Shown here: one piece after another, positions 1 through 30,824 of the stretch
How the letters are laid out: every line of letters begins with the position of its first letter
Position numbering within the stretch: position 1 is the first letter of the stretch
Sequence record: LC788710.1
Length of the DNA: 64,000 nt
Reading direction: 5' to 3' (one strand)
Source of the DNA: Escherichia coli phage Wa28
Position numbers and translations under genes: made by a program
The notes under the pieces: generated by a model
Database searches by the model: none
The model's input: the letters and a program-made list of their open reading frames with translations, nothing else
Told to the model about the DNA's origin: nothing

Positions 1-111
1 GCCAACTAACTATTTCATATTATATAATATACTTATAAATTAAAGAGAAATAATAACTATAAGAAACTATCGGCTAAGTGAGAACCACTATCATTTAACT
101 TATGCACAAAG

Positions 112-208
112 TTATCCACAGCACTTTTTGACTTGACACAATAAGCAACATTTTGGCGACTTATCCACAGACTTATATACAGGTTATCCTACTGTATAAA
201 TATACAGG
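112..208. repeat. Left arm of ~100-bp imperfect inverted repeat: DnaA-box matches TTATCCACA (112-120, 161-169), TTGACTTGACA (128-138), LexA-box-like palindrome CTGTATAAATATACAG (192-207)
   Basis: Read directly; reverse complement of 4202-4309 aligns block by block. Confidence 0.8.
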
Positions 209-456: not shown

Positions 457-1458
457 ATGTCTACTGTAAGAATTGCAGTACCAGCAAACGCCACTATTAT
501 TAATGGTAGTTTGCGCAACCTGCTAGATGGTAGTAGTGCGGCAAGCGTACAACATACCGCTACTATTGTAGAAAAGATTCACGATGAAATTTTAGACAAT
601 AATGATACTCATTATTCAGTTGATGATTTCACGCTATTACTAGACCAGACAAGGGCGCTAGTAATTTTCAACCGTGATTATCACATTTTCCGTAATAGTC
701 GGGGAACTGATATTGATTTTATCATTGTTGGTTATAGTGAGTCTCATAGTGGTTACATTGCGCGATTATATAACGTGCAAGAAAAAGAGCAGGTAACAGC
801 AACAAAAGTAAATAATATCAGACTGGATAGTGTCGGATCGTTATTAAATAGTATCTGGCGTGAATTATCATCCAGTTATAAAGGTGCTGATAGTGACGCA
901 ATCGAAACAACTGGCGTATTGTGTTTTGAACGCGCTACGGGTAACATGTTGATTCCTAATGATTATTTAGAGTATGGGAATGAATCAAACGTTGCAAACG
1001 CTGGATTTACACTTCTCCCGCTTGACAATGTAGCAAAACAGGCTGTACAATCTCAAACTTCAAGCGCAAATGCGCAAACTACTGAAAATAAAGGAAATAT
1101 TATGTCTAAAGTATCTTCTATCGTTGCCGCTAATAAATCCGCCGTTATTAACGCTGCTAAACTGGAAGCGGGTAAAATTGCACTGACTCAAATCACAAAA
1201 GTAGCGGCGAAAAAAGCGCCGTTTATGATTAAAGGGTATATTGATACGCCGATTGGTCGTGTAGTGATCGCTAACCTGCTGAGTGTAGCGGTTGACCAGT
1301 ACGCCCCGACTAACCAGAAAGCGAAAGCGGTAGCAGGCGCGGCAATGGAAGCGGCAATGTTGGAAATGGTACAGAGTTTCAATATTGCTGAAATGATCGA
1401 TGAAATGGTAAAAGGCATTGACATTTCTACCTTTACCCAAAACACCGAAACAGAATAA
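457..1458 (+). CDS. hypothetical protein (333 aa)
   Basis: ORF with GAGGGAG Shine-Dalgarno 8 nt upstream; terminator hairpin follows. Confidence 0.6.
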   Translation: MSTVRIAVPANATIINGSLRNLLDGSSAASVQHTATIVEKIHDEILDNNDTHYSVDDFTLLLDQTRALVIFNRDYHIFRNSRGTDIDFIIVGYSESHSGYIARLYNVQEKEQVTATKVNNIRLDSVGSLLNSIWRELSSSYKGADSDAIETTGVLCFERATGNMLIPNDYLEYGNESNVANAGFTLLPLDNVAKQAVQSQTSSANAQTTENKGNIMSKVSSIVAANKSAVINAAKLEAGKIALTQITKVAAKKAPFMIKGYIDTPIGRVVIANLLSVAVDQYAPTNQKAKAVAGAAMEAAMLEMVQSFNIAEMIDEMVKGIDISTFTQNTETE

Positions 1459-3087: not shown

Positions 3088-3193
3088 TGGAAAGGGCAAT
3101 TGTTAAAATGTTAACTTTTGTTTGTGGCGTGTCTAGTGCTGCAATGTTGATCACGCTAGTGATTATGATTATCCGTGACGCGAGGATCTTTTA

Positions 3194-3538
3194 ATGGTAA
3201 TTTATGAGGGCAATCGCTTTATTACTAATTGCCGTCCGGCATTATTAGCAAACTATTTAAATCAGCTTTCACCAGTTTATAAAGGCGTAGTTAATATCTA
3301 TGAGGGCAAAGCACATTATAAAATTTCTGCCGTTGTCGCCCGTGAACTAGCGTTTCAATTTTTAACTTTTGGGTCTTGTGACGTTCAGGTTATGGGGGAA
3401 GCGTTAATAGCGGAAAATGAAAATGAATTTATTGACATTTTCCGCAAAGTATGTACGGAGCGCCTGATTATGAAAGGCGCATATATTCAATCAACCGCTG
3501 AAAGTATTGAAACAGCGTTTCGAAAGGTGGCGCAATGA
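3194..3538 (+). CDS. hypothetical protein (114 aa)
   Basis: ORF; stop overlaps start of next ORF. Confidence 0.55.
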   Translation: MVIYEGNRFITNCRPALLANYLNQLSPVYKGVVNIYEGKAHYKISAVVARELAFQFLTFGSCDVQVMGEALIAENENEFIDIFRKVCTERLIMKGAYIQSTAESIETAFRKVAQ

Positions 3539-3735
3539 CTAAAGATGAAGCACTAGAAAAAATGAAACAAGGTTTCAAAGTTAGTAATCAATATTTTACT
3601 AGCGATGAATTTTTGTACATGAAAGAAAACGGCGTGATCATGTCAGAAGATGGTTACAATTTTAATGATTGGTTTTTCAATATTCGCAAGGGGGAGGAAT
3701 GGAAGCTAGACGGTTGGAGCGTTTACCGTGAATAG
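3535..3735 (+). CDS. hypothetical protein (66 aa)
   Basis: ORF with ATGA-type overlap to upstream gene. Confidence 0.5.
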   Translation: MTKDEALEKMKQGFKVSNQYFTSDEFLYMKENGVIMSEDGYNFNDWFFNIRKGEEWKLDGWSVYRE

Positions 3736-3861
3736 CTGGTGGCGAAAAACACAAAGCCATAAATCTAATAATACCGCTGGGAAACATTCCCAGCGTTTAC
3801 GATTTGGTAATGGCTTTACAATGATATTGATAATCATTCTCATTCTAGGAGCGATGGCGTT

Positions 3862-4056
3862 ATGAGTGATAAAATTGTTGTAACTAAAACTACTGTTACC
3901 GTTGATACTTTCTTTGTGCCTGATACGCTGGAAAATCGGCAAGCGGTGGAGCGTGGCGATTATGATAAAGTGATTTATGATAACGATGGTTACTACCAAC
4001 ATTTGGTAGACTCCTACGGCGAAAGCGAAAAGATCACACATCGACTACCAGACTAA
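3862..4056 (+). CDS. hypothetical protein (64 aa)
   Basis: ORF with CTAGGAGCG leader; terminator follows. Confidence 0.5.
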   Translation: MSDKIVVTKTTVTVDTFFVPDTLENRQAVERGDYDKVIYDNDGYYQHLVDSYGESEKITHRLPD

Positions 4057-4063
4057 TAATAAC

Positions 4064-4090
4064 GGGGCGCAACTATCTGCCCCCTTTTCT
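4064..4090 (+). terminator. rho-independent terminator (GGGGCGCAACTATCTGCCCC + TTTT)
   Basis: Hairpin plus T run just after stop at 4056. Confidence 0.6.
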
Positions 4091-4201
4091 GGCCTCCTCC
4101 AATTTTGCCCTTATTAAAATACCTCCTCCAAAAATAAACGCGTTAGAATGCGTTACAGAGCGTTTAAAGGCTATATTAGATTATTCTCCTACTGGAATAT
4201 A

Positions 4202-4309
4202 CTGTATATTTATACAGTAGAATAACCTGTTAATAAGTCTGTTGATAACGCCTCAAAATCGCTAGGATTTTGTCAAGTCAAATCATGCTGTTAATAAACC
4301 TGTGGATAA
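4202..4309. repeat. Right arm of inverted repeat: LexA-box-like CTGTATATTTATACAG (4202-4217), DnaA-box variants (4240-4248, 4301-4309), TGTCAAGTCAA (4271-4281)
   Basis: Reverse complement matches 112-208. Confidence 0.8.
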
Positions 4310-4319
4310 CTTAAATAGC

Positions 4320-4500
4320 AGTGTTTCTCACTTCCCTTTCTAAATGCGAATCATTATCATTATGCAACTCATTCGCATTCAATTCTGTAAATGATAACCA
4401 TTCTCATTCCACTTTCTAAACGCGAATCATTATCATTCGCATTCAACTTTTTAAATGAGAATCAATCTCATTATCATTCGCATTTCGGCAGGCAGGGCAT
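4320..4500. repeat. AT-rich block of short palindromic/direct repeats (AATGCGAATCATTATCATTCGCATT, AATGAGAATCAATCTCATT)
   Basis: Read directly. Confidence 0.7.
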
Positions 4501-4522
4501 TTTCATTTTGCCCTGCGCTTTT

Positions 4523-5125
4523 GTGCAAATCCGACATTGCTCCACGGGTGTTACGTGCGGGCGTGTATGTGCGAATCCGACAATTTTTGGTAGTGTGCAA
4601 ATCCGATGGGAAATATTTTTATAGTGTGCGAATCCGACAATGAATTTTCCTAAAAACTCCAGCAATCCGCAACTGCGATGCAATCCAGCTGGATTTACTA
4701 GAGTATGTGCAAATCCGACAAGTGTTAAGGTGTGCGAATCCGATAAGATTTTTGTGATTTCGATTGGAGGGTGTGTGATTGTGTGGGTTTGGGGAGAAGT
4801 TGAGAGAGTGAGAGAAAATAAGGGTAGAAACTGGAGTGGGCAGCATGGGTGGCGTGAAACGCCTGGTTTGCTGCGTTTTTGGGGATAATGCGGGATGTTT
4901 TGGCTAGAATTGAGATTAGGGGAGATAAAGCGAAATTTTATTAGCAAAATGGGGCAAAATCGCTTGACAAGTGAAAATTCCTGTGGCTCTAAAAAACTCA
5001 GGCAAATATGGGCCTTCGGCCCGAAATAATGCTGCTATTTTCAGTGTTCCTAAAAACTTTGGAGACTCCTATCAATGTGCAAATCCGACCATAAATTTCT
5101 AGAAACACAGTGTGCAAATCCGATA
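4523..5125 (+). repeat. Eight same-orientation copies of 15-bp motif TGTGC(A/G)AATCCGA(C/T) at 4523, 4568, 4594, 4626, 4706, 4731, 5076, 5111
   Basis: Read directly; irregular spacing; no coding potential beyond repeat-derived ORFs. Confidence 0.85.
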
Positions 5126-5265
5126 GCAATTTCCAGAAATGTGTTTTGGAAAAATGTCTCCTAGAAATAACCGCCCTCCCTATAACCGCCCTGTATTAAA
5201 CCGCCTATTGCTGGAGTTTCTAGGAACATGAAAACCGCCTGAGTTGGCGAGAGTTTTCCTAGAAA
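5094..5265. repeat. Cluster of palindromic TTCCTAGAAA/TTTCTAGGAA motifs and four AACCGCC repeats
   Basis: Read directly. Confidence 0.7.
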
Positions 5266-5490
5266 CTTAGGAGTCTACTAGAAAGTGTTGTGCTATCCTA
5301 GCAGATGAGCGGCAACAGGTGTATCATCTTGAACATTAATTTATCTATTCAACAGTATTAGTTTTTATATAAGTATAAGATCCCCAGGGGATTGTGAGAG
5401 ATGCTCCACCCCTGGGATACGAATTGCGTGAGATGGTACAAAACTTCTGAAGATTTCCCTAGCCCTCCGACAAGCTACGGGGAAATAGAA

Positions 5491-5530
5491 GTTTCCCATC
5501 CACCATCCGTATCCGGGTGGATCTCTTTAT
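5491..5530 (+). terminator. hairpin (ATCCACC..GGTGGAT) followed by T-rich tract
   Basis: Stem-loop then CTCTTTATTCT on plus strand. Confidence 0.4.
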
Positions 5531-5551
5531 TCTATGTTATTTCATAGAGTT

Positions 5552-5580
5552 ATTATAACATGCAGAAATCATAACGTCAA
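5552..5580 (-). promoter_or_regulatory. sigma70-like promoter (TTGACG-17-TATAAT) firing leftward into the repeat locus
   Basis: Reverse complement gives TTGACGTTATGATTTCTGCATGTTATAAT. Confidence 0.5.
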
Positions 5581-5587
5581 GTAGAGT

Positions 5588-6478
5588 TTATTCATCGAAC
5601 ATGAGATTTCCTTTCATCCCCATCTCCGCATACTCCATGAGTTCTCCTAGGGATCTCACAGGGTAATCTACTTTACTGAAGTTATCATAGATCTTACATG
5701 AACTCTCGTACAACTCGTTAGGTATCTGCAATTTGTTATCAGTTAGCTTCTCATAACGTGTAGAAGATTTTGTACCTTCAAACAGAACTGCAATAACTGC
5801 GGCGATTTGTTTGGTAAGATCATCTGCTCCTAGAATTATTCTATTAATAGCAATCGTTACTTCATGCTTAGGTTTCACAGGTGGAAGGATAGGCTTGAGA
5901 TCCTTAGGTAAAGGTTCTGTTCCTAGGAATCCTTCTTTTGTGCGGAACCAATAATTATCTAGATCAGATATTGTCTTAGACTTATTCCATATAGTGAAGC
6001 AAGGTTTATTTCCTTCACGATCTCTGTATTCACGAACTGGAAGATAATGATCAGGGAATGAGTTGAGTGCATCATGCATTGGTGAGCCTGTCTTTTTAAA
6101 TGACAAACCGTACAACTCATTATAATTCATAACTTCATCTTCATAAACATGGAAATCTTTATATGCTGGAAGATTAAACCATTCCTGAAGTGAATGAACT
6201 GCAAAACGTTGTGCCCAAGCATGCATCACAAGAACTCTGTACTCTTTTACTTCATCTTTTGGAGAAGTACCTCTAACTGTTCTAGCTGACCGAATACAGA
6301 ACATCTCAACAACACGTCTCTCGTTTAAAGAAAGCTCAGAGTAACAACGTTCATGGCAACCTTCTAGCATTTCTAGAAGTTCACGTAGTTTCTCTACATC
6401 GACCGGTGGAAAAGGTCTCTCTTCCACCGCGAATTTACCAACTACACCTTTCGGCTTTCTATTACTATAAAATCCCAT
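5588..6478 (-). CDS. hypothetical protein (296 aa)
   Basis: Long ORF, first gene of leftward train. Confidence 0.6.
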   Translation of the reverse strand: MGFYSNRKPKGVVGKFAVEERPFPPVDVEKLRELLEMLEGCHERCYSELSLNERRVVEMFCIRSARTVRGTSPKDEVKEYRVLVMHAWAQRFAVHSLQEWFNLPAYKDFHVYEDEVMNYNELYGLSFKKTGSPMHDALNSFPDHYLPVREYRDREGNKPCFTIWNKSKTISDLDNYWFRTKEGFLGTEPLPKDLKPILPPVKPKHEVTIAINRIILGADDLTKQIAAVIAVLFEGTKSSTRYEKLTDNKLQIPNELYESSCKIYDNFSKVDYPVRSLGELMEYAEMGMKGNLMFDE

Positions 6479-7089
6479 TAACGACCTCTAGCCTTATCTG
6501 CATCAATAGCTTCGAATACTTTCGTTAACATTTCTTCAAGCTCACCTTCTTTGCTAGGATTGCTCAAACGAATAGTATATGAGTTCCTAGAAACTCCTGA
6601 GTCTTCTTGTGCTCCGCGATCTTTTGCAAAGCCCATCATTGCAACGCCAGCTTTATTCCACTCGTCTACGCTAGATGCTTCCCCAAATTTATATGATTGC
6701 GTATTGCTTACCACGCCACCACAAGGAACATTGTGCATATCCGACATTAATCTTTTATCGGAATTATTCAGCATTGCGATTGGTCCCGACTGCCACGGAT
6801 CTCGAATAGTCACTGGAGTACTCGGGCGGTTCACTTCAGTCTTCACGAGTTTGTATCCAGCATCGATTAGTGCATTAATCAGATTATCAGCCGGGATACG
6901 AGCCGTGCCAAAGATAGCACGAGCATTCATAAGCTTAGCCTGAAATTCCTTGCAACCTTGAAGATCAGTGTGCAAAAACGACAGTTGCATAGATTTAAAC
7001 TGTACTGTAGCAGTCAGATCTTTAAAGCTGTAATCCCATGTGTCGAGTTCATGATCTGCAACTACTTTAATGGTTTGTTGTGTAAACAT
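6478..7089 (-). CDS. hypothetical protein (203 aa)
   Basis: ORF, start/stop overlap with neighbours. Confidence 0.6.
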   Translation of the reverse strand: MFTQQTIKVVADHELDTWDYSFKDLTATVQFKSMQLSFLHTDLQGCKEFQAKLMNARAIFGTARIPADNLINALIDAGYKLVKTEVNRPSTPVTIRDPWQSGPIAMLNNSDKRLMSDMHNVPCGGVVSNTQSYKFGEASSVDEWNKAGVAMMGFAKDRGAQEDSGVSRNSYTIRLSNPSKEGELEEMLTKVFEAIDADKARGR

Positions 7090-7274
7090 TATTTATTCTC
7101 CAGTTTATCTAACAGCTTACGAGCTGCGATATTGTGTTGTTTAATTTCTCTGTTAAGAATCTCGTTCTCACAGTTTAACTCTAGATTCTTAGTATTAAGA
7201 CGACTGCAAATCAGTATCAAGCCTAGAATAGTTAAGAGTGAACCGCCCAGTAATATAAGAAGTAATGTTTCCAT
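7089..7274 (-). CDS. small membrane protein (61 aa, TM + coiled coil)
   Basis: ORF, hydrophobic N-terminus. Confidence 0.45.
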   Translation of the reverse strand: METLLLILLGGSLLTILGLILICSRLNTKNLELNCENEILNREIKQHNIAARKLLDKLENK

Positions 7275-7507
7275 TATTTGATTCCCATGTAACGTTTAAG
7301 ATAAACAATGAAGTCTTCCGGTGCATGCTCTAGGCTACCTTGAGCCACGAATAACTTCAGAGCTTCACGTTGTAGTTTAAGAGTCGCCACCTCGCCACGT
7401 AACTTTGTTAGATCCTCTGCTAATTCTCTGGCTCTACGCATAATAACGAAAGATACAAGTATTACTATGAATAACATAACTACTAAGACGCTTGCTACAA
7501 TTTCCAT
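7274..7507 (-). CDS. small membrane protein (77 aa)
   Basis: ORF, hydrophobic N-terminus. Confidence 0.45.
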   Translation of the reverse strand: MEIVASVLVVMLFIVILVSFVIMRRARELAEDLTKLRGEVATLKLQREALKLFVAQGSLEHAPEDFIVYLKRYMGIK

Positions 7508-7794
7508 TAGTTACCCCAAATTAACATCCAACTCTTATCAAAGTTAGATACTCTATTAATTAATTCGCCCATAGAAATGTTATTGTTGTCTATGGCTTCT
7601 TGTACAAACTCTTTACCGAAATCATCTACTAGGTATTCTGTACCATTTATAATAATCTTGTAGAGAGCTGGGACTAAAGGATGTTGATGATTAAGAGGAC
7701 TCTCGTTAACAATTATCTCATTCTTTCCCCACGTCGTCTTGAACAGTTTGTGAGAGAGTAGAGCTAAGGGGTTTGACCAGACTACGTACTCCAT
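7507..7794 (-). CDS. hypothetical protein (95 aa)
   Basis: ORF. Confidence 0.45.
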   Translation of the reverse strand: MEYVVWSNPLALLSHKLFKTTWGKNEIIVNESPLNHQHPLVPALYKIIINGTEYLVDDFGKEFVQEAIDNNNISMGELINRVSNFDKSWMLIWGN

Positions 7795-8260
7795 CTTTCT
7801 TTAACTCCTGTTTTAACTTTTGATCTTTATTATACCAAATTATGTGCTCACCGTCAACTACAAATTTGTGGAAAGGTGCTGGTACGGTGTACACTCCATA
7901 TTCTGTTAAGCGTGTCACAACTTTATGTGCACATAATCGGCAACCATGTCCTTCTAAGTGAGACCGTGCAGTTTGCAAGAAGTAACCATCATGATCTGGA
8001 CAATAGATCTCAACTTGCTGTTGCATAGTTCTATACTTAACTCTCTCGTATCCAAAGAACTTACCATGTGCTTCTACAGCTCTCCTGATAAAGATTAGAT
8101 TAAGTGCATCTTGCTGGAAGTCTGGATGAAGTTGTTTGAGTTTAATTCTATTAATAGATCCATCTGATTTAGTGAATCTATTTATGGGAAACTGTAATGC
8201 TTCCTCATAAAGTAATTCGTTTATTTTATCTCTCATAGTATACACGAAAGGCCAGAACAA
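7718..8260 (-). CDS. hypothetical protein with Cys/His cluster (180 aa)
   Basis: ORF; CPDH...GHGCRLCAH motif. Confidence 0.5.
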   Translation of the reverse strand: MFWPFVYTMRDKINELLYEEALQFPINRFTKSDGSINRIKLKQLHPDFQQDALNLIFIRRAVEAHGKFFGYERVKYRTMQQQVEIYCPDHDGYFLQTARSHLEGHGCRLCAHKVVTRLTEYGVYTVPAPFHKFVVDGEHIIWYNKDQKLKQELKKDGVRSLVKPLSSTLSQTVQDDVGKE

Positions 8261-8281
8261 TTAAGTCCTGGCCTCTAGAAA

Positions 8282-8734
8282 TTAGGTAGCGTCAATGCTC
8301 ACTAAATCCGTTATAAATTCACCTGATTCCATAGGGATAGAGATCGCAGGGTCACATTCACAGGAGGTTATCCATTCGTCCCATTTACTATCAAGTAAAG
8401 AGATAAAGCTATCAGGACTTCCTCTTTCTTTATACCTAGCTAAATATTCTTCTTTTAGCTCTCGTTCTGGATAAAGCAAAATAAAATCTATTCCAGCAGC
8501 ATGAAGAGCATCTCGTACTTCTTTATGGCTAGAAACTAAGATCAGTTTACCTTCTTCTATAGCTTGTGAAATGTGCTCAATATAGTTTGCTGGAAAGTTA
8601 TCCTTCGGGAACTTAGAAGAATCCGAATCTAGTACACGTGGAAAACACTTAGTGAAGTAAGTCTTACCGCACCCTGGAAAAGCAGATATAACATTAAATT
8701 GCATAATTATTTCCTTAATGAAGTTGCTTGCCAT
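8282..8734 (-). CDS. P-loop NTPase (putative kinase), 150 aa
   Basis: Walker A FPGCGKT near N-terminus. Confidence 0.55.
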   Translation of the reverse strand: MASNFIKEIIMQFNVISAFPGCGKTYFTKCFPRVLDSDSSKFPKDNFPANYIEHISQAIEEGKLILVSSHKEVRDALHAAGIDFILLYPERELKEEYLARYKERGSPDSFISLLDSKWDEWITSCECDPAISIPMESGEFITDLVSIDAT

Positions 8735-23881: not shown

Positions 23882-23957
23882 TGGTAGTTAGTAGTGGATT
23901 TGAACCACTGTAGTCGCTCCGTATGAAGGAGGTGCATAACCACTCTGCCAACTAACT
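23882..23957 (-). tRNA. tRNA-Met-type (anticodon CAU)
   Basis: Hand-folded: T-arm AGTGG/ATTTGAA/CCACT, anticodon loop gives codon ATG, encoded CCA. Confidence 0.7.
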
Positions 23958-23963
23958 ATAATT

Positions 23964-24039
23964 TGGTACTCCGACTTGGGATCGAACCAAGATTTGACGA
24001 TTATCGGTCGCCTGTTCTAACCGTTTGAACTATCGGAGC
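23964..24039 (-). tRNA. tRNA-Ile (GAU), atypical C33
   Basis: Hand-folded cloverleaf; loop sense CCGAUAA. Confidence 0.55.
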
Positions 24040-24040
24040 A

Positions 24041-24334
24041 TTACATCATTTCGTCTAAGTAAGAAGTATACTGGTATTTAGCTTCTCCAGTTTTATCTAC
24101 TTCGACTTCTGTTCTAGGTACTTTTCGTACCAGACCGTGAATCATCTTGTACTGAATAGACTTAGATGGTTCGTGATCTTTTGGAAATACTTGTTTAACC
24201 GTTACTACTTTGAAGCCTTCACGAGGTGTTAGCACAACAACTTGATCACCTTCTTTTATTTTCCAAGACTCAGGAAATTCGTAAGTGTAGCGTTGACCAC
24301 CCGTTTGGAACACGACAGAAAGATAACGTTTCAT
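24041..24334 (-). CDS. hypothetical protein (97 aa)
   Basis: ORF downstream of promoter. Confidence 0.5.
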   Translation of the reverse strand: MKRYLSVVFQTGGQRYTYEFPESWKIKEGDQVVVLTPREGFKVVTVKQVFPKDHEPSKSIQYKMIHGLVRKVPRTEVEVDKTGEAKYQYTSYLDEMM

Positions 24335-24364
24335 TTGGTTTCCCTCTCATTAATTTATGTAAAT

Positions 24365-24393
24365 ATTATAACAAGAAATAAGAGAGAAGGCAA
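24365..24393 (-). promoter_or_regulatory. early promoter TTGCCT-17-TATAAT
   Basis: Motif read. Confidence 0.6.
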
Positions 24394-24408
24394 ATGAATT
24401 TTTAAATT

Positions 24409-24483
24409 TGGTGCTCCCACCAGGAATCGAACCCGGTTCAGATGCTTACAAGGCAACTGCATCGCCAGCAATGCTTTAGGAGC
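24409..24483 (-). tRNA. tRNA-Thr (UGU)
   Basis: Hand-folded cloverleaf. Confidence 0.65.
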
Positions 24484-24650
24484 AATAAACCCGTTATTTC
24501 AACGGAATTTCTTTTTCAAATACAGGAGACTTATCAGACATTACTGTCATAGCCAACTGCTGTAGAAATTCGAATGAGAGTTTTAAACGTTCTTCACCCA
24601 ACTCAACCTCAACACACTTCATTTGCTTATCAACCTTTAGCTTTAGATTA

Positions 24651-24872
24651 TCAGCCCTCTTCGGGTTCTCTTTGCTCAGCTATTGCTAGCCAGTCTGGTA
24701 AAAGAAACTTAGTACGAAATTCTTCATATGTTTCTTCTGGATGAAAGCTATAGCCTTGCTTTTCATCATTTAATAAAACCGAACCGTCTTCCTGTTCATA
24801 AGCTCGGTATGTTTCACCAATAATTAAAACTCGTCTATTGGGGTTTTTATTACGAAACTCAAAAACGTCCAT
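24651..24872 (-). CDS. hypothetical protein (73 aa)
   Basis: ORF. Confidence 0.45.
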   Translation of the reverse strand: MDVFEFRNKNPNRRVLIIGETYRAYEQEDGSVLLNDEKQGYSFHPEETYEEFRTKFLLPDWLAIAEQREPEEG

Positions 24873-24887
24873 AACGTTTCCTTAAGT

Positions 24888-24962
24888 TGGTGCGGGATAC
24901 GAGAGTCGAACTCGTGTCTACTGGTTGGAAGCCAGTTATTCTAGCCACTGAACTAATCACGC
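24888..24962 (-). tRNA. tRNA-Gly (UCC)
   Basis: Hand-folded; perfect T-arm and anticodon stem. Confidence 0.75.
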
Positions 24963-24968
24963 ATAAAT

Positions 24969-25044
24969 TGGCTGGAGAAGGAGGAATCGAACCTACCATT
25001 AACGGAGTCAAAGGCCGTTGTGCTAACCGTTACACTACTCTCCA
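24969..25044 (-). tRNA. tRNA-Gln (UUG)
   Basis: Hand-folded. Confidence 0.65.
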
Positions 25045-25050
25045 AGTATT

Positions 25051-25126
25051 TGGCTGGGATGCCACGGATCGAACGTGGAACCTTCGGAGTCAGAGGCCGA
25101 CGATCTGCCAATTGATCTACATCCCA
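25051..25126 (-). tRNA. tRNA-Gln (CUG)
   Basis: Hand-folded; exact acceptor pairing. Confidence 0.7.
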
Positions 25127-25133
25127 ATAATTT

Positions 25134-25334
25134 TTATTCTACAGGAACCGTGGCAATTGGATCTGGTTCTTCTAGACGTTTACCATTATGGTCAACACGA
25201 ATAATACCACAACCTTCACAGATTACAACAGCACCATAGCCTTCTTTAACTTCGGCTTCTGTAATCAGACCAGAAAGATCACCAGTATCTTTGCCCCACA
25301 TATCGATAGAGCATTCTTTGCAGAAATCAGCCAT
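25134..25334 (-). CDS. small zinc-ribbon protein (66 aa)
   Basis: CKEC...CEGC. Confidence 0.45.
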   Translation of the reverse strand: MADFCKECSIDMWGKDTGDLSGLITEAEVKEGYGAVVICEGCGIIRVDHNGKRLEEPDPIATVPVE

Positions 25335-25358
25335 ATTTTAGTTCCTGTATAAGTTAAT

Positions 25359-25433
25359 TGGTGCATCCTCAGGGAATCGAACCCCGATCGTAAAGTTCGT
25401 AGCTTTACATTCTTTCCGTTGAAATAAGGACGC
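25359..25433 (-). tRNA. tRNA-Arg (ACG)
   Basis: Hand-folded; perfect anticodon stem. Confidence 0.7.
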
Positions 25434-25438
25434 ATATT

Positions 25439-25515
25439 TGGGGTGGCTAGTGGAATTCGAATCCACATAGGCCTGATTCACAATCAGGATCATTAACCAA
25501 TTATGATATAGCCAC
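25439..25515 (-). tRNA. tRNA-His (GUG)
   Basis: Hand-folded; 77 nt consistent with extra 5' G. Confidence 0.8.
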
Positions 25516-25896
25516 AATTGAATACTATTAGGGGATGATCAGTCCTCCATTTGGCCGTCTAAGGTACCAAAGTTAGTCATTCTGCGCACAGGTTTTTCTC
25601 CTGATTCTTTATTGCGAATGCTCTCTAATAATACTCAATTGTGGCGGCTCTCCGAAACTCTTCTACTCTAGCCTTAGCAGCTTACTCCCGAACGCATGTC
25701 GGGAAAGTCTTACTAAGAACATCAAATAGCACCGTTACACTTTGAGCCATTAATGTATCAAGAAGCAGAAGGACTTGAACCTTCACGAGATAGACCATTT
25801 ATCTCAGCCTCGTTTTCGGGTATCTTATGAGGAGTGGATGTTCCCCTTACGCCCTTTAGGAAGCCCCGTCTACCGATTCCGGCATACTTCAAGATT

Positions 25897-25986
25897 TGGC
25901 AGAAGATAATGGAGTCGAACCATCACCGTATCACTACAGCGGGCCGGTTTTCAAGACCGGTTACGTACCACTACGTCCTATCTTCT
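25897..25986 (-). tRNA. tRNA-Ser (UGA), type II
   Basis: Hand-folded; long variable arm. Confidence 0.7.
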
Positions 25987-26213
25987 AGTATTTGTTCTAC
26001 TTCTTTTCGAAGATCTTCTGGATTATCATGATAGGTTGTTTGCCATACATAAATAACTCCAGTATCACATGCTTTATCAAATATTTCTCGCTCAGGAAGT
26101 TTCATGCCCATTGCGTACTTGATATGAAACTCTAAAGCTTGCTTACTAGGGAATGTATGACGCAAGAAAAACTTATCATTAACTAAATCCAACATCATAA
26201 TCTTGACTTTCAT
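25971..26213 (-). CDS. hypothetical protein (80 aa)
   Basis: ORF. Confidence 0.45.
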   Translation of the reverse strand: MKVKIMMLDLVNDKFFLRHTFPSKQALEFHIKYAMGMKLPEREIFDKACDTGVIYVWQTTYHDNPEDLRKEVEQILEDRT

Positions 26214-26234
26214 TTATATTCCCTATTAGTTGTT

Positions 26235-26327
26235 TGGCGGAAGAAGAGAGATTCGAACTCTCAAGCCTGCTTTAACAAGTCAGCCACTTTCCAAGCGGTT
26301 TTCGTCACCTAATCGATTTGCTCTTCC
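26235..26327 (-). tRNA. tRNA-Ser (GGA), type II
   Basis: Hand-folded; variable-arm hairpin; one weak anticodon-stem pair. Confidence 0.55.
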
Positions 26328-26501
26328 GTAGATCTCAGGATTAAATCATAAACTTCATTAGCAGATACTGGAAGTATGAGATTATACATCTTTTGGTCAT
26401 ACCTCTGACCATACTCTATAAACACATACTCTTTAGTTAATGTATTAACAGCTAACCAGATATCAGTTATAGGAGTTTTCATCATGAGTTAATCCAATGT
26501 T

Positions 26502-26582
26502 TGGTAGGGATGGAGGGACTCGAACCCACACCCGAAGACTAGAACCTAAATCTAGCGCGTCTGCCAATTTCGCCACATCCCC
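26502..26582 (-). tRNA. tRNA-Leu (UAG)
   Basis: Hand-folded; perfect anticodon stem; 9-nt variable region. Confidence 0.6.
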
Positions 26583-26589
26583 ATTTTAT

Positions 26590-26808
26590 TTAGTTAGAAA
26601 TAAATAGTAACCCTGCAACAATGGAACCTATGCCACTGAATACCATTATCAGCATAGCTTCTAAGCTGATAAAGCGGACGTTATATGGAGCGCCCCAAGA
26701 ATAATCAGTAAAGAAAGTTTTCTTTTCTTTAGCTAAATCTTTAATAGTTCTAAAATAGATAGCTAGTGCTAAAGCTACAAGAACTACAGAGGCTGCTAAG
26801 AATACCAT
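26590..26808 (-). CDS. small membrane protein (72 aa)
   Basis: ORF. Confidence 0.4.
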   Translation of the reverse strand: MVFLAASVVLVALALAIYFRTIKDLAKEKKTFFTDYSWGAPYNVRFISLEAMLIMVFSGIGSIVAGLLFISN

Positions 26809-26827
26809 ATTATTTCCTTAATTTGTT

Positions 26828-26903
26828 TGGTGGAGTCACTCAGAATTGAACTGAGTTCCACTGCTTGCAAGGCAGTAAGTTTAACCAAATAACCTATGAC
26901 CCC
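26828..26903 (-). tRNA. tRNA-Ala (UGC)
   Basis: Hand-folded; G3-U70 in acceptor stem. Confidence 0.75.
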
Positions 26904-26908
26904 GAATT

Positions 26909-26987
26909 TGGTGGAGAATAAGAGATTCGAACTCTTCTGATATCCTCGGTGCAAGCGAGGTGTCCACTCCAAGCAGACCCATTCCCC
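26909..26987 (-). tRNA. tRNA-Ala (UGC), second copy
   Basis: Hand-folded; G3-U70 present. Confidence 0.6.
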
Positions 26988-27249
26988 AAAATCTTTAAGT
27001 TTACTAAGGCTATTAGCTCGGTGTGCGTATTACCCTCAGACATTAGCCAGTAGAGGATAACCGCTCTTCACAAACCCGATACACTATTCAGTTGCCGCTG
27101 AATCTAGTGGACTAATCTAGAACTTATTGCAAAGTATCCCCCGCCATTAAGGGTCTACTTGCAATTGTGCTTTTTGGCAGCCAGTCCTAGGTCGAGCTAA
27201 TACCTTAGTGAACTTTGATGAGGATTTCTCCTCATCAATTTATATAAAT

Positions 27250-27278
27250 ATTATAACAAGAAATTAAGCATCAAGCAA
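27250..27278 (-). promoter_or_regulatory. early promoter TTGCTT-17-TATAAT
   Basis: Motif read. Confidence 0.7.
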
Positions 27279-27630
27279 GTACATTTTTAGCGATTTCTTG
27301 TATTTCCTTAACGTCACTAACGAAAAGGTAATCAGAGCTTCCAGAGTGCATACTCTGCATAACCACACCATCCTCTGGTGCATCTTCTTTCAAAGTAATA
27401 CCTAACCAGAACTCGGCAAAACTAGGTGTTACCTCACCTTGACTTGCCTTGAATACATCGGCTTCTGTGATCTCCTGACCAGTAGAGAGTCCCATGTACG
27501 GTACGTTCAGATCAATATCTTTGTAAAACTCAGCTAGATCTTGTTCGAAGTCCCAACCTTTAGAGATAGCGAACTCCATTGTTACATGACCGAAATAGCC
27601 TTGAACCTTGCTTGATAATTGCATTTGCAA
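27271..27630 (-). CDS. hypothetical protein (119 aa)
   Basis: ORF. Confidence 0.55.
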   Translation of the reverse strand: MQMQLSSKVQGYFGHVTMEFAISKGWDFEQDLAEFYKDIDLNVPYMGLSTGQEITEADVFKASQGEVTPSFAEFWLGITLKEDAPEDGVVMQSMHSGSSDYLFVSDVKEIQEIAKNVLA

Positions 27631-27649
27631 TTCCTTATTTTGAGTTAAT

Positions 27650-27723
27650 TGGTACTCGGTGATAGAATCGAACTATCGCAACCGCCGTGTAAAGACGGGG
27701 TTCTCCCATTAAACTAACCGAGC
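27650..27723 (-). tRNA. tRNA-Val (UAC)
   Basis: Hand-folded. Confidence 0.65.
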
Positions 27724-27727
27724 AATT

Positions 27728-27805
27728 TGGTGGATTGCCTGGGATTCGAACCCAGAACTGACGGATTAAAGGTCCGCTACTCTTATCCGGTTGAGCTAGC
27801 AATCC
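27728..27805 (-). tRNA. tRNA-Lys (UUU), atypical C33
   Basis: Hand-folded; exact acceptor pairing, GCUC D-stem; loop sense CCUUUAA. Confidence 0.6.
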
Positions 27806-28269
27806 AATTTTTCTACTAATAATTTAAAAGCATCTAGTACAGGTACTTCAAACCATTCCCCGGATACTCTGTAGTCTTTGAGAAGATTATGTAACTCTTT
27901 CTCCGTACGTCTTTTATCTGACGAAAATCTGAAATGGTGTAGCTTGTAGTCTCTATTAGGTGAATAGGTTTGATAACTTGCTAACCTCTCATTTACATCT
28001 ATAGTCATACCTATTTTATACATGCCTGGCCATGCGGGATTACCGATTACATATACAAAACCTTCCGTTATAGGTATTTTATGTTCTCTTTTGTATTTTA
28101 AGAGATTTAAAGCTGCCATTCGATAACAGAATTTAAATTCTGAAGTTTTTAACTTACCCTCTTTACCAGAAATTTCATTATATTTGCTCATATAAGCTCT
28201 TATAAGCTTATCATCTATAATAAAATTATCAGGAAGGTTTAAGGCAGCTAAAACTTTATTAATTAGCAT
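27796..28269 (-). CDS. T5orf172-domain (GIY-YIG-like) protein
   Basis: GFVYVIGNPAWPGMYKIGMT...YQTYSP motif. Confidence 0.65.
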   Translation of the reverse strand: MLINKVLAALNLPDNFIIDDKLIRAYMSKYNEISGKEGKLKTSEFKFCYRMAALNLLKYKREHKIPITEGFVYVIGNPAWPGMYKIGMTIDVNERLASYQTYSPNRDYKLHHFRFSSDKRRTEKELHNLLKDYRVSGEWFEVPVLDAFKLLVEKLDC

Positions 28270-28444
28270 AAACTTCCTTAATAGAGTAGACTTTCAAGTA
28301 AGGATGATTAATACCAAATTCCGCCATTACTTCATTTTCATCTTTACCATAATGGGCTAGTGGATACTTCTTACGATCTTTACTAGAACGTAAATCACTT
28401 ACTTTTAAACGAAATAATTTCATTTCGAAATCCTTCTATTAAAT

Positions 28445-28522
28445 TGGAAGCGGGTGCAGGAATCGAACCTACCTCTTTCTAGCTTATGAGACTAGCGATC
28501 TCTACCAGAGATCTAACCCGCA
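28445..28522 (-). tRNA. tRNA with CAU anticodon (Met, fMet or Ile2)
   Basis: Hand-folded. Confidence 0.6.
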
Positions 28523-28528
28523 ATTGTT

Positions 28529-28606
28529 TGGTCTCCGTGGGAGGATTTGAACCCCCGACCCTATCGCCCCAAACGAAACGCTCTAGCCAAACTGAGCTAC
28601 ACGGAG
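28529..28606 (-). tRNA. tRNA-Pro (UGG)
   Basis: Hand-folded; exact acceptor pairing. Confidence 0.65.
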
Positions 28607-28638
28607 AATATTCTTTGTTAACTCACTTTATAAAATAT

Positions 28639-28667
28639 ATTATACAGAGAATTAAGCTAAATAGCAA
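28639..28667 (-). promoter_or_regulatory. early promoter TTGCTA-17-TATAAT
   Basis: Motif read. Confidence 0.65.
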
Positions 28668-28921
28668 CTACATTTTTTAATAAATTTACTTATTGCGTAG
28701 GCCACCTGGAGGGTTCAAGCCCCACGGCTGACAAAGAAGTTTGCGAGACTTCTCTTAAACGCCAGAATAGACCCGCCGATCTATCGGAACCTACTCAATA
28801 AGTAAACTTTCGTTTACCTACACCTACCTGGTCGGGAGGATTTTCAGCGACTAGAACCGGCCGGAAACTCATCGCCTTGTTTATCTAGGAGTCCGTTCTC
28901 TAGGAAGCAGAAACCTAAATT

Positions 28922-28995
28922 TGGTGCGGTCGGAGGGAATCGAACCCTCAACTTCTGGTTGGCAACCAAAAATTATACCTTTTAACTACGAACGC
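28922..28995 (-). tRNA. tRNA-Gly (GCC)
   Basis: Hand-folded. Confidence 0.7.
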
Positions 28996-29001
28996 ATAAT
29001 A

Positions 29002-29130
29002 AGTCAATCTAGGCAGGACTTGAACCTGCTATCACTTGTGCGGATTTACGAGAACCATTCTTTCACTCGAATCGAACGAGCTTCTACCCTCGGCAAGCTG
29101 GTGTCCCCTCTCCACCACGCTAGAATGATA
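29002..29130 (-). other. two degenerate tRNA-like elements (T-arm-like GCAGG/ACTTGAA/CCTGC and CTCG/AATCGAA/CGAG) lacking full cloverleaf
   Basis: T-arms found; no pairing acceptor or canonical anticodon arm. Confidence 0.3.
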
Positions 29131-29208
29131 ATTAGTGCCTGCTCCTTTGAATCAAGAAGTCCACCCCGGACTTTGGGTCTTTGCAGTACATCACGCTGCT
29201 CTGATGTT

Positions 29209-29285
29209 TGGTACACCCACTAGGACTTGAACCTAGAACCTACCGCTTAAGAGGCGGTAGCTCTAACCAATTGAGCTATGGATGT
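29209..29285 (-). tRNA. tRNA-Lys (CUU)
   Basis: Hand-folded; perfect anticodon stem. Confidence 0.7.
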
Positions 29286-29291
29286 ATAATT

Positions 29292-29366
29292 TGGCGGTAC
29301 TAAGGGTAATCGAAACCCTACCTCTCCCGTGACAGGGGAGTATCCTAACCGTTAGACTATAGTACC
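29292..29366 (-). tRNA. tRNA-Asp (GUC)
   Basis: Hand-folded; exact acceptor pairing. Confidence 0.75.
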
Positions 29367-29938
29367 TTTAACTTTTTAAGTTCTTTAGGATTGCCTCCTA
29401 AAGAAGTGTATCTTTTACGCAACCCATTATCTGAATAACTTAACTTTCTCCCTGCACCTGACCAGCCTAGCTCTCTTACTGTAACCTCGATTATTTCTTT
29501 AGTTATAGAGATATCTTTTGGTTTATGTGAAGAGCACTCCTGACATTTTTCAGCTTTTAAAGAAATAGCTTTACCACAATCCTTACAACAATTATCATGG
29601 TTTAGTTTACTAAATCCTTTATCTTTTAAAGTCTTTTCTAGATGCTGCTCTTTTGTGAGCACTTGTAAGTTATTAAGACCCCAATAAGTAATGTCTGTGT
29701 TAATATGGTCAACTTCTAGTTCAGAGTCTAGACTTGGTAATTTCTTAAATGCACATGCTAAAATCCTATGTACACCGGTATTTCTCTGTTGACCATTTTT
29801 ATGGAGACGTATAGATAAGTATCCGTAATTACTGGTTATTTGGGTTAGTATTTTGTTTGATTTGATACTAAATACTAACCCATCCAAACTTACTAAGTAC
29901 TCCTCAAACCCTGGAATGGGTAAGGATATTCCGTGCAT
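29357..29938 (-). CDS. HNH homing endonuclease
   Basis: NGYLSIRL...HRILACAF...VDHIN motifs; Cys cluster. Confidence 0.65.
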   Translation of the reverse strand: MHGISLPIPGFEEYLVSLDGLVFSIKSNKILTQITSNYGYLSIRLHKNGQQRNTGVHRILACAFKKLPSLDSELEVDHINTDITYWGLNNLQVLTKEQHLEKTLKDKGFSKLNHDNCCKDCGKAISLKAEKCQECSSHKPKDISITKEIIEVTVRELGWSGAGRKLSYSDNGLRKRYTSLGGNPKELKKLKVL

Positions 29939-29941
29939 AAT

Positions 29942-30127
29942 TTACTCAGTTTTGAGTTTTTCGATAGCTTCCTCAACCTCTTTTAGAGCTTCACGACGCT
30001 CTACTTGACCTTGAAGTTCTTCAAGAAGTTCAGCTTTCAGAGCCTTAATAATATTACCACGAACCTTAATATTATTAATCAGATTATCACGATCAGCTTC
30101 TAGTCGAGCAATTGCACGAGTTGTCAT
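29942..30127 (-). CDS. small coiled-coil protein (61 aa)
   Basis: ORF. Confidence 0.4.
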   Translation of the reverse strand: MTTRAIARLEADRDNLINNIKVRGNIIKALKAELLEELQGQVERREALKEVEEAIEKLKTE

Positions 30128-30230
30128 ATCTATTTCCTCAGTTGTTAATGAAAAATGGTATCTGTGACTGAATTCGATATCAGCAATGATAGCTGGTTGG
30201 CTACCGGTTTACTTAACTCTACACAGAATA

Positions 30231-30313
30231 TGGCGGGCCGTGTAGGATTCGAACCTACGTTGTCTTTCGACATGGATTAACAGTCCACCGCCAAACCGCT
30301 TGGCTAACGACCC
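30231..30313 (-). tRNA. tRNA-Asn (GUU) with unusually long (13-nt) variable region
   Basis: Hand-folded. Confidence 0.55.
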
Positions 30314-30320
30314 TAAAATT

Positions 30321-30396
30321 TGGACGACCGCATGAGATTCGAACTCACATAAGGAGGTTTTGCAGGCCTCCGCCTAAGCCATTCAGCCAACGGTCG
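30321..30396 (-). tRNA. tRNA-Cys (GCA)
   Basis: Hand-folded. Confidence 0.6.
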
Positions 30397-30574
30397 ATTT
30401 ATCTTGCTTTTCGAGATTAGTAAACTCTAGATCTTTAGAATGTCCTATAGATCTAGCATAATAGCCATCTCCAGCATCGTAGCCTGATTTACCGCACTCA
30501 CACATCTTAAACTCTCTATAATGAGTGAAAATATGTTCAGAACCACAACACTTAAATTTAACTAACATTTTCAT
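30383..30574 (-). CDS. small zinc-ribbon protein (63 aa)
   Basis: CCGSEH...CECG. Confidence 0.4.
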   Translation of the reverse strand: MKMLVKFKCCGSEHIFTHYREFKMCECGKSGYDAGDGYYARSIGHSKDLEFTNLEKQDKSTVG

Positions 30575-30813: not shown

Positions 30814-30824
30814 TTTATGTAATA

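What the first reader, a model, noticed from the sequence alone, without database searches (positions are those of the whole stretch)
5491..5580. Strong promoter oriented into the repeat locus with no gene to read
A TTGACG-17-TATAAT promoter on the minus strand (5552-5580) fires leftward, but the next 1.4 kb is the repeat locus with only repeat-derived ORFs. This implies a non-coding transcript across the repeats or transcription-coupled remodelling of the site.
Basis: inference. Interest (0 to 1): 0.5.

Follow-up and report, generated by a model that had tools for sequence, protein, structure and literature searches.

The report
Conserved promoter for unannotated hairpin RNA
The promoter is real and conserved in every T5-like phage examined, and it probably reads a short, unannotated, strongly folded non-coding RNA that lies between the last early gene and the DNA-injection-stop repeats.

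Summary
The window is a T5-like phage. Positions 4100-5270 are the known injection-stop (iss) repeat region. The left terminal repeat ends near 4989.

The minus-strand promoter is confirmed: TTGACG, 17 bp, TGTTATAAT at 5580..5552. This motif class occurs twice in 64 kb against 0.01 expected. All 43 distinct homologous regions from E. coli, Salmonella and Klebsiella phages keep the -35, TG and -10 elements, with 20 different spacers and different upstream genes.

"No gene to read" is only half right. There is no conserved ORF. However, the ~200 nt after the promoter are not repeats. In at least nine unrelated sequence versions they form a 5' leader, a ~130-nt imperfect hairpin, and a small G-rich hairpin followed by an A/T-rich tail.

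Folding z-scores, G·U versus A·C mismatches, compensatory changes and loop-restricted substitutions all favour the minus-sense RNA.

Best reading: an undescribed structured non-coding RNA gene, probably the first unit transcribed when second-step DNA transfer resumes. Its 3' end and function are unknown. A transcript running across the repeats is neither supported nor excluded. Public T5 RNA-seq data could settle expression.

The parts
5575..5580 (-). -35 hexamer TTGACG
   Evidence: The homologous hexamer is TTGACA (29), TTGACG (8), TTGCAT (5) or TTGAAA (1) in 43 distinct relatives.
5552..5560 (-). Extended -10, TGTTATAAT (TGn + TATAAT), 17-bp spacer
   Evidence: TG is present in 43/43 relatives. 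The -10 hexamer is TATAAT (32) or TATCAT (11). There are 20 distinct spacer sequences.
5545..5545 (-). Predicted transcription start (7 nt after the -10). Inferred, not measured.
   Evidence: Inference from promoter geometry. The conserved initial transcribed sequence is AACTCTATGA / AATCTCATAGA.
5527..5545 (-). 5' leader. It is unpaired in the window's type. In most other types it forms a small stem-loop with covarying pairs.
   Evidence: Stem-loop compensatory changes are (pairs 13/21, 14/20, 10/25).
5397..5526 (-). Long imperfect hairpin (130 nt, 53 pairs, 4 G·U) of the predicted RNA
   Evidence: MFE is -68.4 kcal/mol with z = -5.4. Equivalent hairpins occur in six Markadamsvirinae sequence types and three Klebsiella-phage types.
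5380..5392 (-). Small G-rich hairpin ATCCCCTGGGGAT followed by CTTATACTTA; a candidate but weak intrinsic terminator
   Evidence: Homologous CUCUCAUGAAAUGGGGG hairpins in other types contain G·U pairs that exist only in the minus-sense RNA.
5334..5379 (-). A/T-rich stretch (about 83% A+T) between the small hairpin and the conserved block. It is either the RNA tail or an untranscribed spacer.
   Evidence: Sequence. The motif GGGGGATCT..TAAA(A)TAAAAG is shared by T5, type 4 and Klebsiella phages.
5255..5333 (-). Ultraconserved single-copy block (TTCAAGATGATACAC..GTTGCCGCTCATCTGCTAGGAT.GCACAACACTTTC...). It is unclear whether it belongs to the transcript.
   Evidence: 437 phage records, one copy each. 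It is absent from Klebsiella phage Sugarland.
5235..5250 (-). Second terminator-like hairpin, TCGCCAACTCAGGCGG + TTTTCATGTT, at the edge of the repeats

Best explanation
The promoter is a functional host sigma-70 promoter with an extended -10. It heads a small independent transcription unit for a structured non-coding RNA, read on the minus strand from about 5545.

The RNA consists of:
- a short 5' leader, which is a small stem-loop in most relatives;
- a ~130-nt imperfect hairpin whose lower stem is conserved and whose upper stem is replaced wholesale between lineages but always stays paired;
- a small G-rich hairpin followed by an A/T-rich tail.

Its length is roughly 170-200 nt if the small hairpin terminates transcription. 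It is about 310 nt if transcription runs to the second terminator-like hairpin at 5250..5235, in which case the RNA would include the ultraconserved block.

The promoter lies about 556 bp to the right of the terminal-repeat end and about 1 kb beyond the 7.9% nick / first-step shear point. It therefore enters the cell only at second-step transfer, and it is the first strong promoter to do so (inferred).

Sequence is free to change while duplex shape is kept, and no antisense target was found. I therefore infer that the RNA acts through its long duplex, as a protein-binding or decoy RNA or as an RNase III substrate, rather than by base pairing.

Shown: the promoter motif and its conservation; fold conservation and strand bias; absence of conserved ORFs. 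Inferred: that transcription occurs, the start and end points, the timing, and the mode of action.
For: Promoter.
- It scores 11/12 with TG.
- The motif class occurs 2x in 64 kb against 0.01 expected.
- In 43/43 distinct homologous regions the -35, TG and -10 elements are kept, while 20 different spacer sequences and at least five unrelated upstream genes occur.

Fold.
- Six Markadamsvirinae sequence types and three Klebsiella-phage types share little sequence in the hairpin, yet each forms a long hairpin at the same position.
- Minus-sense folding z-scores are -4.5 to -7.2. Plus-sense z-scores are -2.1 to -4.6. Minus is better in 6/6 types at G+T of about 0.5.

Strand.
- Transition mismatches between the two arms are G·U on the minus-sense RNA 17 times against 6 (binomial p about 0.02).
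- In the T5 type all four one-sided stem changes are GC<->GU or UA->UG on the minus sense, and three stem pairs show compensatory double changes.
- The small-hairpin stem CUCUCAU/AUGGGGG needs two G·U pairs.

Selection.
- Within types 0 and 5 every substitution inside the hairpin falls in a loop or bulge; there is also a 1-nt C-run indel within the stem in type 5.

Not coding.
- No ORF is shared among types.
- The window's 44-aa ORF is frameshifted by a 1-nt indel in Sw2, SIY1lw and L043.

Termination.
- Terminator criteria are met at the small hairpin in types 0, 2 and 5, strongly in type 2.
Against: - No expression data were available, so the transcript, its 5' end and its 3' end are predictions.
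- The U-tract after the small hairpin is poor in the window (5 of 8 T). It fails the criteria in types 1, 3 and 4, and the tail is A-rich in Klebsiella phages. The RNA may therefore not end there.
- Arms of a long DNA palindrome can evolve in concert through template switching, so compensatory changes alone do not prove RNA-level selection.
- The strand-bias evidence is moderate (17:6), and the sequence types are not fully independent.
- There is no Rfam match and no identified partner or target, so the function is a guess.
- The discriminator (AACTCT / AATCTC) differs from the ATATT reported for known T5 early promoters, so the temporal class is uncertain.
Confidence: 0.6

Rival explanations
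1. Cis-acting transcription. The purpose of the promoter is to transcribe into the A/T-rich segment, the conserved block, the iss repeats or the terminal-repeat boundary. Possible roles are forming an R-loop or primer, activating an origin-like region (DnaA boxes plus iteron-like repeats), or assisting concatemer processing and terminal-repeat duplication, as T7 phiOR/pacB does. The hairpin RNA would then be only the 5' part of that transcript.
For: - The promoter points at the terminal-repeat end 556 bp away.
- A conserved G5 run is followed by an 83% A+T stretch whose sequence (GGGGGATCT..TAAAATAAAAG) is conserved even between T5 and Klebsiella phages.
- Terminator signals are weak or absent in several types.
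- The neighbouring region has DnaA boxes, at least nine GTGCAAATCCGAC-type repeats and palindromes.
- An ultraconserved non-coding block sits just downstream.
Against: - Two terminator-like hairpins lie in the path.
- The strongest conservation of structure is in the hairpin itself, with minus-sense G·U bias. A mere passage of RNA polymerase would not require that.
- The literature places T5 replication origins near the middle of the genome (Davison preprint).
- Leftward transcripts through 4675-4975 would be C-rich, which is unfavourable for R-loops.
- There are no data on T5 packaging signals.
Confidence: 0.15
2. DNA-level or insulator element. The long palindrome works as DNA (cruciform, hairpin or protein site), or simply as a bidirectional transcription stop between the convergent pre-early (rightward) and early (leftward) units. 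The promoter would then be secondary.
For: - The plus strand also folds significantly (z = -2.1 to -4.6).
- On the plus strand the hairpin is followed by a T-rich run and is flagged as a terminator at 5503-5520.
- The element sits exactly between convergent gene blocks.
- Palindrome arms can co-evolve by DNA mechanisms.
Against: - This does not explain why a near-consensus promoter is conserved in 43/43 genomes directly upstream and pointing into the hairpin.
- Mismatches and stability favour the minus-sense RNA in all types.
- The G·U pairs of the small hairpin exist only in that RNA.
- Pre-early transcription already has a terminator at 4064-4083.
Confidence: 0.1
3. The promoter serves a small protein gene, for example the 44-aa minus-strand ORF at 5365..5499, or a micro-ORF in the conserved block.
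For: - ORFs of 20-48 codons exist in every type.
- An invariant AUG lies in the block.
Against: - No ORF is shared between types. Most start with TTG or GTG without a ribosome-binding site.
- The 44-aa ORF is broken by a 1-nt indel in the nearest relatives.
- The block ORFs are frameshifted by a 1-nt insertion in L018/L022, and the plus-strand ATG is lost in L005/L043.
Confidence: 0.03
4. The match is a chance or vestigial promoter without function.
For: Loose sigma-70 matches are as common as in shuffled sequence (37 found, 36.1 expected).
Against: - The strict motif is expected 0.01 times in the window.
- Its hexamers are conserved across 43 distinct sequences from two phage lineages, while the spacer and both flanks vary.
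Confidence: 0.02

Closest known systems
Bacteriophage T5 sigma-70 promoters (the strong early promoters; for example the one annotated upstream of T5.022/T5.023, whose window counterpart is 7857..7829)
   Same: Host sigma-70 type, near-consensus hexamers, TG extended -10, on the minus strand of the left early region.
   Different: This one is not annotated in any of the three T5 records. No ribosome-binding site or ORF follows it. Its discriminator is AACTCT / AATCTC, not the ATATT reported for T5 early promoters.
phi29 pRNA gene (Rfam RF00044)
   Same: From my own knowledge: it is a ~170-nt structured phage RNA with its own strong host-type promoter, encoded next to a genome end and read toward it, and its sequence diverges greatly among relatives while the fold is kept. 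The T5-like RNA shows this same gene-level pattern.
   Different: No covariance-model match. The predicted shape is a simple long hairpin rather than the pRNA three-way junction. T5-like phages package with a terminase, and no RNA requirement is known. The function was not tested.
Adenovirus VA RNA I (abundant viral decoy RNA)
   Same: From my own knowledge: about 160 nt, an imperfect long duplex, structure conserved with sequence variable, acting by binding a host protein. The size and the 'shape conserved, sequence free' pattern match.
   Different: It belongs to a eukaryotic virus and is a pol III transcript. No bacterial target is known. This is an analogy of mechanism only, not tested.
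T7 phiOR / pacB (a promoter reading into the terminal repeat at the concatemer junction)
   Same: A promoter with no gene downstream that points into the direct terminal repeat.
   Different: It lies on the opposite side of the repeat. Terminator-like hairpins intervene. A conserved RNA fold is present. The packaging role is untested.
Transcript-primed origins (ColE1 RNA II, T4 oriF/oriG, T7 primary origin)
   Same: A promoter followed by structured RNA, a G run and an A/T-rich segment, with DnaA boxes and iteron-like repeats nearby.
   Different: No replication data exist for this site. T5 origins have been mapped near the genome centre according to the Davison preprint.
6S RNA (Rfam RF00013)
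   Same: A ~180-nt, largely double-stranded RNA, in a phage that depends on host sigma-70 RNA polymerase.
   Different: No model match, and no large central bubble in any predicted fold.

Membership tests
Sigma-70 promoter with extended -10 | -35 hexamer close to TTGACA, 16-18 bp upstream of the -10 | tested here: met
   TTGACG with a 17-bp spacer. Relatives have TTGACA, TTGACG, TTGCAT or TTGAAA at 17-18 bp.
Sigma-70 promoter with extended -10 | TGn motif plus a -10 hexamer close to TATAAT | tested here: met
   TGTTATAAT. TG is present in 43/43 relatives. The -10 is TATAAT or TATCAT.
Sigma-70 promoter with extended -10 | Hexamers conserved while spacer and flanks vary (phylogenetic footprint) | tested here: met
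   20 distinct spacers, and different upstream genes.
Sigma-70 promoter with extended -10 | Initiates transcription in vivo or in vitro | not testable with these tools
   No expression data were reachable. Public T5 and Bas33 RNA-seq data sets exist.
Independent small non-coding RNA gene | No conserved open reading frame | tested here: met
   Frameshifting indels are seen.
Independent small non-coding RNA gene | Secondary structure conserved beyond sequence, with covariation, on the transcribed strand | tested here: met
   At least nine sequence versions all fold into the hairpin. z-scores are, compensatory and G·U changes, strand bias of 17:6, and loop-restricted substitutions.
Independent small non-coding RNA gene | Defined 3' end (intrinsic terminator: GC-rich stem plus U tract) | tested here: inconclusive
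   Criteria are met in types 0, 2 and 5 and not in types 1, 3 and 4. The tail is A-rich in Klebsiella phages.
Independent small non-coding RNA gene | RNA detected in infected cells | not testable with these tools
   Needs RNA-seq re-mapping or a Northern blot.
Any described RNA family (Rfam 15, including 6S RNA, phi29 pRNA, Y RNA, ribozymes) | Covariance-model match | tested here: not met
   cmscan of 3500-8500 at E <= 1 gave only a chance IS009 hit at 8086-8163. ARAGORN finds no tRNA or tmRNA here.
T5 injection-stop-signal repeat region (Repeat Region 3) | Lies within the repeat/palindrome array (T5 AY587007 9194-10409) and is built of its DR/IR/pal units | tested here: not met
   The promoter and hairpin lie to the right of the last DRD copy and share no repeat family with it. 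Only the left end of the conserved block carries the CTAG-type motif.
T7 phiOR/pacB-type promoter | Promoter without a downstream gene, pointing into the direct terminal repeat | tested here: met
   The predicted start at 5545 is 556 bp from the repeat end at about 4989.
T7 phiOR/pacB-type promoter | Transcription reaches the repeat and is required for concatemer processing | not testable with these tools
   Two terminator-like hairpins intervene. There are no packaging data.
Transcript-primed replication origin | Promoter followed by an A/T-rich unwinding segment | tested here: met
   5379..5334 is about 83% A+T and is preceded by a conserved G run.
Transcript-primed replication origin | DNA synthesis initiates there | not testable with these tools
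   The Davison preprint cites mapping of origins near the genome centre.

The most novel reading that the evidence does not exclude
The hairpin RNA is a virus-associated structural or decoy RNA, comparable in logic to adenovirus VA RNA or phi29 pRNA. On this reading it is made in quantity as the very first product of second-step DNA transfer. It acts through its long duplex on a host nuclease or immune sensor, or on the phage's own DNA-transfer or packaging machinery. Its hypervariable upper stem would record an arms race.
Probability: 0.12. Interest if true: 0.8.

Novelty: new member of a known kind. Interest (0 to 1): 0.55.

Why it matters
T5 is a classical model phage whose two-step DNA injection is still unexplained. 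The roughly 1.7-kb 'non-coding' border between first-step and second-step DNA has been treated as repeats only.

A universally conserved promoter plus a fold-conserved RNA at the right edge of that border would be a new, unannotated gene in about 440 sequenced phages. It would also be the first thing transcribed when injection resumes. [quoted passage not shown]

It also shows that the small 'hypothetical proteins' annotated across this interval in many records are probably spurious.

Tried and rejected
- Rfam (E <= 1) and ARAGORN found nothing in the interval.
- Protein coding is rejected. No ORF is shared among types, and the candidate ORFs carry frameshifts. The ORFs in the repeats carry stops in relatives.
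- Antisense or mimicry target: no similarity of 5256-5590 to any complete E. coli genome. Elsewhere in the window only chance 10-15-nt matches were found. The element is single-copy in phage genomes. A mobile palindromic repeat or a long antisense target is therefore unlikely.
- 6S-like shape is rejected: no central bubble.
- A hairpin inside the conserved block (TGTTGCC / GGCACAACA) is not supported. Natural variants give C·A on the minus sense or mismatches on both strands.
- An automated cross-type 'mini-alignment' with the hairpin apex removed was inconsistent and was dropped.
- One query used wrong coordinates and hit a dNMP kinase gene. Its only use was to identify L045 as a Klebsiella Sugarland-type phage.
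- Seven literature searches and several papers gave no report of a promoter or RNA at this site.
- The flanking proteins have no Pfam family and only unknown-function PHROGs.

Full report
**Context**

The window is a T5-like phage (Demerecviridae). Positions 4000-6600 match 451 phage records, with Shin27, YZU-L1, Sw2 and others at 92-96% identity.

Annotated relatives place the end of the left terminal repeat at the same aligned column in Sw2, SIY1lw and T5 (the Wang annotation). That column is window position ~4989.

The interval ~4100-5270 is the known T5 'Repeat Region 3', the injection-stop-signal (iss) region. It carries DnaA boxes, GTGCAAATCCGAC-type direct repeats and palindromes. Genes to the left (up to 4056) are pre-early genes on the plus strand. 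Genes to the right (from 5588) are early genes on the minus strand.

**Observation**

The reported promoter is present exactly as described: TTGACG (5580..5575), 17 bp, TATAAT (5557..5552), preceded by TG. Loose promoter matches are at chance level in this region (37 found, 36.1 expected). The strict class TTGACR-N13-15-TGNTATAAT occurs only twice in 64 kb, against 0.01 expected. The other copy, at 7857..7829, precedes an ordinary ORF. The promoter begins 8 nt after the stop codon of the T5.018 homologue.

**Conservation of the promoter**

I collected homologous regions from several sources:
- GenBank: T5, Sw2, SIY1lw and Klebsiella phages;
- IMG/VR;
- metagenomes.

All 43 distinct sequences have the promoter.

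| Element | Variants (count) |
|---|---|
| -35 | TTGACA (29), TTGACG (8), TTGCAT (5), TTGAAA (1) |
| TG | present in all 43 |
| -10 | TATAAT (32), TATCAT (11) |
| Spacer | 17-18 bp, 20 different sequences |

The gene upstream differs among genomes; it is a homing endonuclease in some. The promoter is therefore not a by-product of coding constraint.

None of the three annotated T5 records marks a promoter here.

**What lies downstream**

The next ~200-236 nt are not repeats. They fall into six unrelated sequence types in E. coli and Salmonella phages. The Klebsiella Sugarland-type phages add three further upper-stem versions.

Every version has the same layout:
- a short leader, usually a small stem-loop;
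- a ~110-150-nt imperfect hairpin;
- a small G-rich hairpin ending in GGGG(G);
- an A/T-rich tail.

In the window the long hairpin is 5526..5397 (53 pairs). The small hairpin is 5392..5380. The plus-strand 'terminator' flagged at 5503-5520 is simply the base of this hairpin.

**Evidence for an RNA on the promoter's strand**

1. Folding. Minus-sense z-scores are -4.5 to -7.2 and plus-sense z-scores are -2.1 to -4.6. Minus is better in all six types, although G+T is about 0.5.
2. Strand bias. In a strand-neutral DNA alignment of the two arms, transition mismatches are G·U on the minus sense 17 times and on the plus sense 6 times (p about 0.02).
3. Changes within the T5 type. Three stem pairs changed on both sides. 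All four one-sided changes keep pairing through G·U on the minus sense. 98.8% of cells are paired, against 35-43% when partners are slid.
4. Changes within types 0 and 5. Every substitution in the hairpin falls in a loop or bulge.
5. Lower versus upper stem. The lower stem is conserved (for example CUAGGC..GAUUAU / AUAAUC..GCCUAG). The upper stem is replaced by unrelated but self-complementary sequence.
6. The small hairpin. CUCUCAU-GAA-AUGGGGG needs two G·U pairs.

Caveat: palindrome arms can co-evolve by DNA mechanisms, so points 3 and 5 alone would not prove selection on RNA.

**Not coding**

ORFs of 20-48 codons exist, but none is shared between types. The window's 44-aa ORF is frameshifted in its closest relatives. 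The ORFs inside the repeats contain stops in most relatives.

**The 3' end is uncertain**

The small hairpin plus T-rich tail meets simple terminator criteria in types 0, 2 (strongly) and 5. It fails them in types 1, 3 and 4. In Klebsiella phages the tail is A-rich.

A second terminator-like hairpin lies at 5250..5235. The RNA is therefore either ~170-200 nt or ~310 nt. Some read-through toward the repeats cannot be excluded.

**The conserved block**

Between the two terminator-like sites lies a ~55-80-nt block (5333..5255). It is nearly invariant in 437 phage records, with one copy per genome.

It is non-coding, because natural indels shift the reading frame and the plus-strand ATG is lost in one lineage. 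It is absent from phage Sugarland, which has a different conserved block. Its role is unexplained.

**Negative searches**

- No Rfam family and no tRNA.
- No similarity to E. coli genomes.
- No second copy or long complementary target in the window or in phage genomes.
- No report of a promoter or RNA at this site in the papers I could search.

**Interpretation**

The best-supported reading is a small, independently transcribed, structured non-coding RNA gene.

The promoter lies about 1 kb beyond the 7.9% nick motif (window ~4511-4518) and 556 bp beyond the repeat end. It is therefore second-step DNA, and it is the first strong promoter to enter the cell (inference). I infer action through duplex shape rather than base pairing.

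Rivals:
- cis-acting transcription into the A/T-rich segment, the iss or the terminal repeat (origin priming or activation, or a T7 phiOR/pacB-like role);
- a DNA-level palindrome or bidirectional insulator;
- a small protein;
- chance.

The last two are effectively excluded.

**Verdict**

The promoter observation is confirmed. 'No gene to read' should be replaced by 'an unannotated non-coding RNA gene'. A transcript across the repeats, or remodelling of the site, remains unsupported but is not excluded.

The element is new as a member of a known kind, namely phage small structured RNAs. Expression can be settled with existing public RNA-seq data.

Noticed in passing
window 5255-5333 (minus-strand reading TTCAAGATGATACACCTGTTGCCGCTCATCTGCTAGGATAGCACAACACTTTC...): An ultraconserved, single-copy, non-coding block. 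It is nearly invariant in 437 T5-like phage records while both flanks vary. One lineage (L005/L043) changes only its middle, and Klebsiella phage Sugarland lacks it. A -35-like TTGnnn sits 17-18 bp upstream of its GATGAT in several otherwise divergent types. Its function is unknown.
   Followed up: partly
window ~4470-4520 versus 5255-5333: The block lies about 750-860 bp beyond the first-step shear/nick site. From my own recollection this is roughly the length of DNA that would span the T5 tail. It is a speculative hint that the sequence sitting at the portal during the injection pause may matter.
   Followed up: no
window ~4989 and 5009-5021: Three independent annotations (Sw2, SIY1lw, T5) put the end of the left terminal repeat at the same column, about 4989. 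It sits inside a stretch that is almost fully conserved (about 90% invariant columns) between T5 and the window (GCTTGACAAGTGAAAATT.CTGTGG.TCT). It is followed 20 nt later by the hairpin GGGCCTTCGGCCC.
   Followed up: partly
window 598-616, 3155-3173, 3823-3841 (also 43686-43704); related repeats at 4320-4480: Fur-box-like sites (GATAATGATAATCATTATC with up to 3 mismatches): 5 matches against 0.05 expected. Three are in the pre-early region. One has 2 mismatches and lies just upstream of the last pre-early ORF (3862..4056). The iss repeats at 4320-4480 are built of similar GATAAT/ATTATC-like hexamers.
   Followed up: partly
window 4675-4975: A strongly G-rich plus strand (GC skew +0.5 to +0.7), almost free of C, lies just inside the terminal-repeat end. 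Rightward transcripts here would be G-rich.
   Followed up: no
window 100-120, 161-169, 4301-4309: Consensus DnaA boxes (TTATCCACA / TTATGCACA) lie in the two inverted-repeat regions, as Davison described for T5-like phages. The total count in the window is not above chance (5 found, 3.1 expected), but the sites are clustered.
   Followed up: partly
window ~4510-4518: GCCCTGCGC followed by TTTTGTGCAAATCCGAC. This is the same sequence context as the annotated 7.9% major single-strand nick of T5.
   Followed up: no
window 7829-7857 (minus strand): The only other strict extended -10 consensus promoter in the window (TTGACG-17-TATAAT with TG). It is followed by AGGAG and the ORF 7507..7794. It lies in a position similar to the promoter annotated upstream of T5.022 in AY543070 (13212-13286), but the equivalence was not checked.
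   Followed up: partly
window 23882-37341 (minus strand): A cluster of 29 tRNA genes, typical of T5-like phages.
   Followed up: no
L045 (= Klebsiella phage Sugarland MG459987.2, 11022-11297), L047, L048, L049: Klebsiella Sugarland-type phages keep the promoter, leader and lower stem. They have three different upper stems and their own conserved downstream block (GGAAACGTGGGAATGAACTCACGA). Several records annotate small hypothetical proteins across the hairpin; these are probably spurious.
   Followed up: partly
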